Shown here: one piece after another, positions 21,001 through 24,000 of the stretch
Layout of the letters: each line of letters opens with the position of its first letter
Position numbering within the stretch: position 1 is the stretch's first letter
DNA from: Callorhinchus milii
Taxonomy: Eukaryota
NCBI RefSeq assembly: GCF_018977255.1
Contig: NW_024704746.1
Coordinates: forward strand, 52,204,001 to 52,268,000
DNA: 64,000 bases
Direction: 5' to 3'
Position numbers: made by a program

Positions 21001-24000
21001 GCGTATATTAGAGAGAAGGGAATAGAGATTAATATGAGAGAGGAATAGGAGCGGTGGAGGCTCGTGTGAAGTATAAACACCAGCCATGGATAATGTGGGC
21101 CAAATGACCTGTTTATGTTTTGTATTATTCTATGTCATATAAAGAATAATAGAACCAAGAGATGAGTTCTGGAATCCAATCAAGGAATTCAGGTGGATTA
21201 TACATAGAAAAAGGGATCCCCAGGAGTGGATTACAGACCAGGATCAAATTCTGGGGGAGAAAAGTTTATATATATATATAAAAAATGATCCTCATGAGTG
21301 AGTTACAATGCATTATCTAATTCAGGAGGGGGTGTAATTATATGTAGAATAACTGATCCCAAGAGTGAGCTACAAGCCAATATCCAATTTTGATGAGAGG
21401 GAGAGTATAAAGAGTAACTGATACCCAGGAATGATTTACTGAACAAAATTTAATTCAGGGATTTGGGGGCTATATACAGAATAACTGATCCCAGGAGTGT
21501 CTTTGAGACTAGTATATAATCCAGTGGTTCGGGGTTTCAAGTTGTGTATCCTGAGAATCATATGGTTGTACTAAATCGGAATTTTGTGTGGTTTATGTGT
21601 TTATGGTGAGTCACTCGGATGACTGTAAATTTATGCTGAACTCAGTGCACAGTCTCTGGTCAGAAGTTGTATAGTATTATTAGAGCAGTCAGGCATAGTG
21701 TACGTATGGTGCTGCAGAAGTCTAATGTAATGCACTCCCTTTGCAGGTTGAACATTGGAAAATAAATCCAATCCACAAGACTTTTGTTGGCTGTTTGTTC
21801 GATCCACTTGTTTCTTTGATAAAAGCTGAGCCCTAAACATGGACCAGCCTGTGACACGCAGACAAATTATAGATAATTGGAGGAAATGATGCTGCAACAT
21901 CACAGAGAAAGACAGGTTCAATTGTCTAAACAGCTGGCTGAGATAAGCAAAGTCATAGGAGAAGAGGGTGCAACGTGTAAGAGAGTGGAGAAGACTAAAG
22001 GGAGAAAAAGTCAAGAAGGGTTCTTCAGTGTGCACTCCCACTACAATCCAAGCACTGCATGTCAGTCACAGAAAAGGCTCATTGAGTCCAGGCAATTGCG
22101 CAAATCGCCTAAGAAGCTAAAGAAGCACATGGCAGATCAGTTCTTTCCCAGAATGAGCACAATTCATCTGGACCTGTACCAATGCGAGAAGAGGGAAGAT
22201 AAATGCACCAATCCTGAAAAGCTAATGAGTCAGCTGAAAGTTTGCATTATTAACAAATCCCAGGCTGTACAAGAGGTTCAGGACCCATCTAGATTGAAGC
22301 CACTTGGCCTTCAGATTCTCCAGGCAAATCCTGTTGTGGTTGAGGGTGTGTCTGTTCACTACAGTGAGACATCCAGAGTGAAAAGGCAAATGCACAGTGA
22401 ACAGCTGGGCCAGGATGGTCAGAGGAAGAGAACTTTGGAACCGATAGATAGTCGCCTGGAAAACTCAAAAAACGCTGCCCTGAAGAGCTGGATGTTTCAG
22501 AAGAATGCTCTTATCAGAAAAGAGAGCGCAGTGAAGATGAGGCAGAGGCAGCAGAAAGCTGAGGAACTGAAGAGACGAGAGAGCGATATGAAAAGGAAGC
22601 AGAAAGAGTCAGAGGAAAAAGTGAAAAAGTGGATGGAGAGAAAAAGAAAAGAAGGAAAAAAAGAAAAGATAGCAGTGAAAGTGGCTACAGTCCCAAGAAT
22701 ATTGAGTGTTGATGTTCAGATTATCAGCCGGAATATTAAGAGGTTGACTCCTGCATCAAGAGCAGACAGGAAATCCATCATTCAGAACTCATCAAGAGCC
22801 TGGAAGACTGACCAACAAGTAAATCAGAAAAGGCTGGAGAGACAGAGCTGGGGAAGTTTTGTCCCAGATCCAGGCAATCCAAGAACCAAGGTGTCTTCAC
22901 AACTTTCCACTGGTTCATTCTGGGAGCAAGTTGTGAATGCAGAGCCTGGTGATTGGGTGACTCAGAAGCCCAGCAGAGAGAAGACGAAGATGGCTGGGGC
23001 AATGGGTCAAGAAATTGAGGAAAATACAGGGTTTGAACCTACAGGTCAAAATTCAATTGCAAGATCCTTAGGCAGCACAGCTCAGGTGAAATACCTACCC
23101 AATGCCAGCCTCGACAAAAGTGTACAGCCTGTACACAGACTGTCCTTCAACCAGTGGCTGTCAAGAAAATCACAGAAAAAAACCCTGATGGTCAATGGAG
23201 AGGAGGTGGAATCAGACAGAGGTTTTCAAGATTTTCTCCCGAAACTTGCAAGAAAGAGAACAGAAAGCATAATGGATAGGAAAAAGAAGGCAGATGCAGT
23301 GTTAGAGTTTGACCGAGTAGCTAACCTAATGACAGCCCCTGAGTGCACAACAATCCCCCAGACCTCACACTGGGTAGGTAGCGCCAGACTAACTCCAGCG
23401 GTACAGAAACATTTCATGTACAGGTTAGTTGAGGATGCAGTTACAGGTGCAGGTGGTGATTCATTGGTACAAGGGAGGGAACGTGGCCCTGGGCAGCCAC
23501 AGAAGGCCCCTACAGCTCTGTGTGCAAAGTCCGCAGCTGGGGAAAGCCCCACTGGCTTTGTCCTCAAGTACAAAAGACATTTGCGAAGACCAGATCCACC
23601 GGGCAGGGAAAACCACCCAACTAATTGACCGCAAAAGATGGGCTTCCCCATCCATGTACACAGCGCACTTTGACTGAGCCAAGTCCGGGGTGGGGGTTGG
23701 GGGGAGCAACAAATGCATTGGATTCATATTTTATGGGAATACTGATGCAGCAGAGCAGTGAAAGCAATGTCAATCTCCACAATAAAGGAAATTACTGTCC
23801 ATTCTTTCCATCCTGCTTGGATCTGGATGGGCTGATGTAGCTGGGAGGGGAGTATTGTTGCTCCATTCCAGAATATTTTGATTGCAGACATTGACCAATA
23901 CCCCAATCAGTGTTCAGGCACCCTCAGGACACCACAGGTTCCATGCCCTCTGCATTTGGATCAGAATTCAGTTCCTGCTCCTGATCTCTATCCAATATCC

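What the first reader, a model, noticed from the sequence alone, without database searches (positions are those of the whole stretch)
21839..23628. Extra ~580-aa coiled-coil gene between NRIP2 and TEX52, not known to me from the mammalian locus
A long single-exon ORF free of TE motifs, with three widely spaced W-x-x-x-K amphipathic helices like those of the microtubule/sperm-flagellum proteins CCDC181, CCDC34 and MAP9. It is tail-to-tail with testis gene TEX52. It may be an ancient gene lost in mammals or a retrogene. This is the best candidate for an undescribed host gene in the window.
Basis: partly seen in the sequence, partly recalled or inferred. Interest (0 to 1): 0.7.

Follow-up and report, generated by a model that had tools for sequence, protein, structure and literature searches.

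The report
Intact gene for a CCDC34-like protein
The long open reading frame is a real, intact single-exon gene for a basic, mostly disordered protein with one long charged helix, belonging to a small fast-evolving animal family that distantly resembles sperm-tail and cilium microtubule proteins; it is a fairly ordinary, uncharacterised gene.

Summary
The ORF is real. It runs 21886-23628 (+), 580 aa from the first ATG, and is 583 codons stop to stop. The longest stop-free run in 60 composition-matched simulations was 323 codons.

The ORF is unique in the window and has no transposon domain. An exhaustive HMMER scan found 11 relatives (E 1e-50 to 2e-4). They share four blocks and a C-terminal motif along the whole length, so the coding sequence is complete in one exon.

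The W-x3-K motifs are confirmed: four are present and three lie in conserved blocks. The Pfam CCDC34 domain matches only below threshold, in 6 of 12 family proteins, always at the same block.

"Coiled coil" is overstated. AlphaFold2 gives one confident 71-residue, 52%-charged helix with no heptad pattern, and about 65% of the protein is disordered.

The downstream neighbours are confirmed as a TEX52-type exon, a forkhead gene and RHNO1. NRIP2 was not confirmed. Names and taxa of the relatives and vertebrate synteny could not be obtained, so "lost in mammals" and "undescribed" stay open.

Likely function, by analogy only: a microtubule- or axoneme-associated protein.

The parts
21886..23628 (+). 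Complete coding sequence, 580 codons plus a TGA stop, in a single exon. The predicted protein is 66 kDa with pI 10.1.
   Evidence: ORF; beyond chance; 11 relatives; aligned from Met1 to the C-terminal motif; pI, mass.
22285..22365 (+). Block B1 (aa 134-160). The family consensus is LKPFGxRILR...NVS and the window copy reads LKPLGLQILQ...GVS. It is modelled as a beta-hairpin in relative P0006.
   Evidence: P139 and G141 invariant; 4-12 of 20-27 aligned residues identical to each relative; strands 127-133 and 137-143 in P0006, pLDDT about 50-70. In the window protein's own model this block has pLDDT < 50.
22447..22671 (+). Block B2 (aa 188-262), the best conserved part. It reads DSRLENS..N..LK.W...KN ... 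SEE.VK.WME.K and holds W-x3-K motifs 1 and 2 (aa 202-206 and 249-253). This is the stretch that matches Pfam CCDC34 below threshold.
   Evidence: L191, W202, K206, S242, V246, W249, K253 invariant; 24-36 of 75 identical to each of 10 relatives; PF13904 hits map here; hhalign to P0012, probability 97%, E 1e-10.
22474..22686 (+). Long charged alpha-helix, aa 197-267 (71 residues, about 107 Å at 1.5 Å per residue).
   Evidence: helix 197-267, block pLDDT 79-96; equivalent helix 196-270 in P0006, pLDDT 81-98; 52% charged, no heptad register.
22954..22968 (+). Fourth W-x3-K (aa 357-361), in the non-conserved linker. It is probably incidental.
   Evidence: the linker 263-414 is only 10-26% identical to relatives.
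23128..23319 (+). Block B3 (aa 415-478). It holds the third conserved W-x3-K (aa 424-428, helix 421-436) and the motif D..LQ...PKLAR.R.
   Evidence: 12-30 of 49-64 identical for the 8 relatives that cover it; helices 421-436 and 453-479.
23368..23478 (+). Block B4 (aa 495-531): W....LTPAV...F, helix 504-521.
23593..23610 (+). C-terminal motif (aa 570-575, DPPGRE; family form EPQGSE), 10 residues before the stop. It marks the true C-terminus.
   Evidence: the motif [ED]P[QP]G[SCR]E lies 10-17 residues from the C-terminus in 6 of 12 family proteins.
23781..23786 (+). First AATAAA downstream of the stop, 153 nt after it. It is a candidate polyadenylation signal; a second lies at 24297-24302.
   Evidence: Inference only, with no transcript data.
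21735..21746 (+). Splice-acceptor-like site (pyrimidine run followed by AG) 140 nt upstream of the ATG. It could mark a non-coding 5' exon upstream.
   Evidence: Speculative.

Best explanation
The ORF is an intact single-exon protein-coding gene, probably functional. It encodes a 580-aa, strongly basic (pI 10.1) protein that is mostly disordered. A 71-residue highly charged helix (aa 197-267) is bracketed by two invariant W-x3-K motifs. A third conserved W-x3-K helix lies at aa 421-436. Short conserved motifs complete it: an N-terminal LKPFG-type hairpin, PKLAR, and a C-terminal EPQGSE-type motif. It belongs to a small, very fast-evolving animal family whose core block is a distant look-alike of the Pfam CCDC34 domain (PF13904). 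The most likely mode of action is inferred by analogy and not shown. I propose that the positively charged Trp-anchored helix lies along microtubules of the axoneme, manchette or cilium, as reported for CCDC181 and MAP9. The disordered arms and short motifs would recruit partners. Shown: the ORF, its conservation, its architecture and the motif. Inferred: microtubule binding and expression in testis or cilia. I put about 0.85 on 'real conserved coding gene' and about 0.35 on 'microtubule- or axoneme-associated'.
For: The ORF is far beyond chance: 583 codons against at most 323 in 60 simulations, and the other frames carry 22-35 stops. Eleven relatives were found in 1.84 billion representatives, the best at E 1.4e-50 with 36% identity over aa 135-530. 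Conservation is block-wise: B2 is 32-48% identical to every relative and the linker only 10-26%. That is the pattern of selection on function. 5.1% of possible substitutions would create a stop (264 of 5220), which is 88 expected stops per substitution per site. A neutral copy would therefore be broken after a few percent divergence. The N-terminus and the C-terminal motif of the relatives both fall inside the ORF. PF13904 matches at the same block in 6 of 12 family proteins (E 2e-5 to 0.18). The nearest ESM Atlas clusters carry PF13904. The architecture of one long confident helix in a disordered protein is shared by relative P0006. It is the same kind described for MAP9, where a preprint reports poor sequence conservation but a single long main helix across Metazoa (10.1101/2023.02.23.529616, passages). 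[quoted passage not shown] The downstream neighbour is a TEX52-type gene. There is no CpG island at the 5' end, with CpG o/e 0.2-0.5, which fits a tissue-restricted promoter.
Against: All PF13904 scores are below Pfam's cut-off (12-24.8 bits against 35), and 6 of the 12 family proteins give no hit at all. K/E/R-rich helices attract spurious matches. Both Atlas scores are under 0.9, which the tool rates as leads only. The window protein departs from the family consensus at 12 of 35 well-conserved columns, near the top of the family's range of 4-13. This includes the B1 and C-terminal motifs and could mean relaxed constraint. There are no expression data, no dN/dS and no localisation data. A profile search of the PDB found nothing (4 chance hits, E 0.39-0.52), so the family is not among solved axonemal proteins. 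The main helix is about half the length reported for MAP9.
Confidence: 0.5

Rival explanations
1. It is a real gene, but the protein is a nuclear or nucleolar basic protein that binds chromatin, RNA or ribosome-biogenesis factors. The charged helix and K/R clusters would act as nuclear localisation or nucleic-acid-binding elements. The CCDC34 likeness would be compositional.
For: The protein has pI 10.1 and 19% K+R. Dense K/R runs lie in aa 205-262. All Pfam CCDC34 hits are sub-threshold. About 65% of the protein is disordered, which is typical of nuclear proteins as well.
Against: The invariant residues are the Trp and Lys of W-x3-K, not the K/R runs. The sub-threshold hits all fall on one family and on the same block in 6 proteins. 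hhalign ties that block to an invertebrate protein at 97% probability.
Confidence: 0.2
2. It is a recently inactivated or unexpressed copy, either a retrocopy or a dying gene, whose reading frame has not yet been hit.
For: The coding sequence is in a single exon. The window protein deviates at 12 of 35 conserved columns, including LKPFG to LKPLG, RILR to QILQ and EPQGSE to DPPGRE. It has a long terminal branch of 1.54. No close orthologue appeared in the three word-index searches.
Against: The ORF of 1,743 nt (stop included) is intact, with 88 expected stops per substitution per site. Deviation of this size also occurs in P0007 (13 of 38) and P0008 (10 of 37). There is no poly(A) remnant, with no A-run of 8 or more in 23629-27000, and no flanking direct repeats of 25 nt or more.
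Confidence: 0.1
3. It is a transposon-derived ORF, for example a LINE ORF1-like coiled coil, or a chance ORF in A-rich sequence.
For: The window is rich in LINE fragments, with RVT_1 hits at 8618-8926 and 14068-17184 and at 34461-35075, 40234-40953, 42687-43622, 57053-57343 and 58466-59494. The ORF is A-rich (35% A, 19% T), which lowers stop frequency.
Against: Simulations using the ORF's own composition reach at most 323 codons. It is a single copy in the window. It has no transposon domain. Its relatives are similar-length proteins with block-wise conservation. It is not adjacent to any RT ORF on the same strand.
Confidence: 0.02

Closest known systems
Pfam PF13904 (CCDC34 domain) proteins: CCDC34 and CCDC181. 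That CCDC181 and MAP9 carry this domain is recalled, not tested.
   Same: Both have repeated W-x3-K motifs inside a K/E/R-rich helix. Weak matches of block B2 fall on profile positions about 2-110 in 6 of 12 family proteins. The neighbour is a testis-type gene. CCDC34 and CCDC181 are sperm-flagellum or manchette proteins (PMC12123824, passages).
   Different: Scores never reach the 35-bit cut-off. The family has its own blocks (B1, B3, B4, C-terminal motif) that the Pfam model does not cover. It lies at a different locus from CCDC34; the chromosomal position of CCDC34 is recalled only.
MAP9 / MAPH-9 (microtubule-associated protein 9)
   Same: Sequence conservation is poor across animals. The protein is mostly disordered, with one dominant long alpha-helix that carries the conservation (10.1101/2023.02.23.529616, passages).
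   Different: The main helix here is 71-75 residues (about 107-112 Å), against about 202 Å reported for MAP9. No sequence comparison with MAP9 was possible with these tools.
The unnamed family found here (P0002-P0012)
   Same: It shares all four blocks with P0002-P0007. It shares the C-terminal motif with P0003, P0005, P0006, P0011 and P0012. It has the same predicted architecture as P0006.
   Different: It is a lone long branch between three clades, at most 33-36% identical to any member, with several consensus residues changed.

Membership tests
Pfam PF13904 CCDC34 domain family | Score at or above Pfam's gathering cut-off (35 bits) | tested here: not met
   17.1 bits, E 0.0047, aa 196-262. 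The best relative is P0003 at 24.8 bits. Six of 12 family proteins give no hit at E <= 1.
Pfam PF13904 CCDC34 domain family | Repeated W-x3-K motifs in a charged helix | tested here: met
   Motifs at aa 202, 249 and 424 lie in conserved blocks. W202, K206, W249 and K253 are invariant in 11 sequences. That this motif typifies the domain is recalled.
Pfam PF13904 CCDC34 domain family | Localisation to sperm flagellum or microtubules | not testable with these tools
   This needs expression and localisation data.
MAP9 (IPR026106) | Single main alpha-helix of about 202 Å in an otherwise poorly conserved protein | tested here: inconclusive
   One dominant helix is present but has 71 residues (about 107 Å) here and 75 in P0006. 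No MAP9 sequence or profile was available for comparison.
   phmmer E 1.4e-50 to 2.4e-4. The leave-one-out profile scores 238 bits. All blocks are aligned. The motif lies 10 aa from the C-terminus.
Canonical coiled-coil protein | Heptad repeat with hydrophobic a/d positions over long stretches | tested here: not met
   The best register has 6 of 21 strong hydrophobic residues in helix 197-267. Only 7 helices are predicted and 378 of 580 residues are disordered.
LINE or other transposon ORF | RT, endonuclease or gag-type domain, and multiple copies | tested here: not met
   No such Pfam hit. Single copy in the window. Genome-wide copy number could not be tested.
Processed retrogene | Poly(A) remnant and target-site duplications | tested here: not met
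   No A-run of 8 or more in 23629-27000. No flanking direct repeat of 25 nt or more; shorter duplications would be missed.
Processed retrogene | An intron-bearing parent gene elsewhere | not testable with these tools
   No vertebrate genome collection is on hand, and the relatives come without DNA.

The most novel reading that the evidence does not exclude
The gene represents an unnamed, ancient animal lineage of the W-x3-K-helix microtubule-protein group, a fourth branch beside CCDC34, CCDC181 and MAP9. It would reach back to invertebrates (P0012). In this genome it would keep its ancestral place in the NRIP2-TEX52 interval, and it would have been lost or moved in amniotes, whose gene lists show nothing there. 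If so, it would be an unstudied candidate component of the sperm flagellum or cilium in non-mammalian vertebrates.
Probability: 0.25. Interest if true: 0.5.

Novelty: new member of a known kind. Interest (0 to 1): 0.35.

Why it matters
If the analogy holds, this adds a conserved but very fast-evolving microtubule- or flagellum-associated protein to the small W-x3-K group, whose known members cause male infertility when lost. It would also be a case of lineage-specific gene loss next to FOXM1. In practice it shows that the interval holds a real gene that should be annotated. It changes no concept, and the protein may already carry an automatic "uncharacterized protein" label in public annotation, which I could not check.

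Tried and rejected
Word-index protein searches, run three times (whole protein, family alignment, C-terminal region 432-548), returned only the window's own protein. The first two were saturated at 8000 candidates, probably by low-complexity words. They are no evidence that relatives are absent, since one search found 11.

Names, taxa and contigs of P0002-P0012 therefore stayed unknown.

A profile search of the PDB found only 4 chance-level hits (E 0.39-0.52; kinetochore MCM22 and topoisomerase V).

The ESM Atlas structure hits all have TM <= 0.29 by query and are meaningless for a model with pLDDT 0.44-0.45.

The Raf1_HTH Pfam hit (19.3 bits against a cut-off of 27.3, in 1 of 11 members) was rejected as chance.

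Fold search was not run because both models have mean pLDDT < 50.

Complex prediction was run on two copies of aa 185-272 to ask whether the helix pairs. The queue was full, and the job was accepted. The verdict was 'no answer' with score 0.00, and my alignment was not used. This is evidence neither for nor against pairing.

Literature: 'DUF4207'/'PF13904' gave 0 papers. 'DUF4532'/'PF15046' gave 1 irrelevant paper.

The 3' exons of TEX52 and the protease-like exons of NRIP2 were looked for by Pfam, ORF by ORF, and not found.

Full report
THE ORF

The + strand is open from 21877 to the TGA at 23626-23628, which is 583 codons. The first ATG at 21886 gives 580 aa. Read, that frame closes after 16 codons, and an in-frame TAA lies at 21874-21876. 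The end coordinate is right.

The ORF is not a chance product. In 30 simulated 64-kb sequences with the ORF's own second-order composition the longest stop-free run was 323 codons. In 30 with the window's composition it was 285. The other five frames of the same DNA hold 22-35 stops.

The stretch 21401-24400 has no other copy in the window apart from one 29-nt match. tblastn with the protein finds only the ORF itself. Pfam gives no transposon domain.

RELATIVES

Three word-index searches returned only the window's own protein. An exhaustive phmmer scan of 1.84 billion cluster representatives found 12 proteins at E <= 1e-3, including the query. That makes 11 relatives of 298-1125 aa: P0002 at 1.4e-50 (36% identity over aa 135-530), P0003 at 4.7e-32 and P0004 at 6.5e-32, falling to P0012 at 2.4e-4.

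An 11-sequence alignment (A1) shows four blocks:
- B1, aa 134-160, consensus LKPFGxRILR...NVS.
- B2, aa 188-262, with invariant L191, W202, K206, S242, V246, W249 and K253.
- B3, aa 415-478, with a third W-x3-K and PKLAR.
- B4, aa 495-531.

A C-terminal motif [ED]P[QP]G[SCR]E lies 10-17 residues from the end in 6 of 12 proteins, including this one.

B2 is 32-48% identical to each of the 10 relatives, while the linker 263-414 is only 10-26% identical. The N-terminal Met region and the C-terminal motif of the family both lie inside the ORF, so the coding sequence is complete in one exon.

P0012, which looks like an invertebrate protein by composition (inference only), matches B2 by hhalign at 97% probability, E 1e-10, and carries the C-terminal motif.

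A maximum-likelihood tree gives three well-supported clades: (P0003, P0005, P0006, P0011), (P0002, P0004, P0007) and (P0008, P0009, P0010). The window protein is a lone long branch of 1.54, and the median end branch is 1.06. This is a very fast-evolving family.

The window protein departs from residues shared by at least 8 of the other 10 at 12 of 35 columns. The family range is 4 of 32 to 13 of 38. It is divergent but not an outlier.

IS THE GENE ALIVE?

264 of 5220 possible single-base changes (5.1%) would create a stop. That gives 88 expected stops per substitution per site, before counting frameshifts. An unconstrained copy would be broken after a few percent divergence (inference).

Block-wise conservation argues for selection in the family, but not necessarily in this lineage's recent past. 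No dN/dS or expression test was possible.

ARCHITECTURE

AlphaFold2 with A1 gave mean pLDDT 49.7 and pTM 0.24, with 378 of 580 residues below 50. The helices are at 2-25, 158-174, 197-267 (pLDDT 79-96), 421-436, 453-479, 495-499 and 504-521.

The same run for relative P0006 gave a helix at 196-270 (pLDDT 81-98), a hairpin at block B1, helices at B3 and B4, and 488 of 689 residues below 50. The architecture is therefore a family trait.

The main helix is 52% charged, and no heptad register has more than 6 of 21 strong hydrophobic residues at a/d positions. This points to a charged single helix of the kind seen in microtubule-associated proteins and away from a canonical coiled coil.

The protein is basic, with pI 10.1 and a mass of 66 kDa. 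W-x3-K occurs at aa 202, 249, 357 and 424, against 0.86 expected by chance. Three of the four lie in conserved blocks.

FAMILY ASSIGNMENT

The only recurrent Pfam signal is PF13904 (CCDC34):
- P0001: 17.1 bits
- P0003: 24.8 bits
- P0007: 22.4 bits
- P0006: 18.7 bits
- P0008: 16.1 bits
- P0009: 12.0 bits

There is no hit in P0002, P0004, P0005, P0010, P0011 or P0012. All scores are under the 35-bit cut-off, and all fall on block B2 and the first part of the profile.

The ESM Atlas puts clusters carrying PF13904 among the nearest, at 0.88-0.89 with 185-188 shared features. The tool rates scores under 0.9 as leads only.

The PDB holds no relative. I therefore file the protein as like the CCDC34 domain group and not as a proven member of it.

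WHAT THE KNOWN LOOK-ALIKES DO

[quoted passage not shown] CCDC181 is at the manchette and sperm flagella, binds HOOK1 and binds microtubules directly.

From the abstract and passages of a preprint (10.1101/2023.02.23.529616): MAP9/MAPH-9 marks axonemal doublet microtubules. Its sequence is poorly conserved, but all homologues keep one main helix of about 202 Å.

The present family has the same kind of build with a helix about half as long. On this basis I propose binding to microtubules or the axoneme through the Trp-anchored basic helix. This is analogy and has not been shown.

CONTEXT

Flanking multi-exon genes were scanned exon by exon as single stop-to-stop ORFs.

Downstream lie:
- a DUF4532 exon at 27144-27719 (-), E 9e-20; that this is the TEX52 family is recalled;
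- two Forkhead exons at 38750-38941 (-) and 37873-38067 (-), E 1e-17 and 2e-8;
- a RHINO-domain ORF at 59809-60687 (+), E 5e-20.

This matches the human order NRIP2, TEX52, FOXM1, RHNO1 (PMC8303811, passages).

NRIP2 itself was not confirmed by any tool. The ORF 5055-5516 (-) resembles its N-terminus only in my memory.

The human list shows no gene between NRIP2 and TEX52. A duck list shows none between NRIP2 and FOXM1 (PMC13718420, one passage). Such lists do not exclude unnamed models.

I do not take this window for human.

RETROGENE QUESTION

There is no A-run of 8 or more in the 3.4 kb after the stop. There are no flanking direct repeats of 25 nt or more. The exon structure of the relatives is unknown. 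The question stays open.

WHAT STAYED UNCHECKED

- Names, taxa and genomic positions of the 11 relatives.
- Any vertebrate genome comparison, for which no collection is on hand.
- Expression.
- dN/dS.
- The closed collections, metagenome contigs and viral contigs.
- Supplements, notably Table S1 of the MAP9 preprint.

VERDICT

This is a new member of a known kind of protein, of moderate to low interest.

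Noticed in passing
window 14065-17184 (-): An uninterrupted 1039-aa LINE ORF2 with an endonuclease (Exo_endo_phos, E 1e-15) and a reverse transcriptase (RVT_1, E 2e-36). It looks young or possibly active. It sits between the presumed NRIP2 5' end and the gene studied. RT fragments lie at 8618-8926, 34461-35075, 40234-40953, 42687-43622, 57053-57343 and 58466-59494. Further LINE-like ORFs at 536-1168 and 8930-9364 are judged by eye.
   Followed up: partly
window 47757-48422 and 48932-50858: A G-rich 14-34-nt array is followed by a 1.9-kb TG-rich array (42/90-nt units, 72-83% matches). The second array contains the two N runs (50490-50618 and 50859-51005) and lies just upstream of the 5' exon region of the forkhead gene. 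The N runs were left as they are.
   Followed up: no
window 29850-30144: A 46-nt tandem repeat, 6.4 copies at 99% matches, between the TEX52-type exon and the 3' end of the forkhead gene. It creates long spurious ORFs on the minus strand.
   Followed up: no
window 24564-25248: Two SINE-like elements in inverted orientation: arms of 70 nt at 83% complementarity, and a 32-nt core repeated at 24714 and 24787. They lie about 1 kb downstream of the gene's stop.
   Followed up: no
window 27144-27719 (-) and 23.6-27.2 kb: The TEX52-type exon covers only profile positions 20-164 of 279 of DUF4532. The rest of the domain was not found in any minus-strand ORF of 30 aa or more between 23.6 and 27.2 kb. 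The 3' end of that gene, and its distance from the studied gene, are therefore unknown.
   Followed up: partly
window 5055-5516 (-): An ORF whose N-terminal part looks, from memory only, like the first coding exon of NRIP2. It has no Pfam hit. If this is right, about 16 kb, including the LINE, separates the NRIP2 start from the studied gene.
   Followed up: no
window 19001-24500: There is no CpG island around the gene's 5' end. CpG observed/expected is 0.20-0.53 in every 500-nt bin.
   Followed up: no
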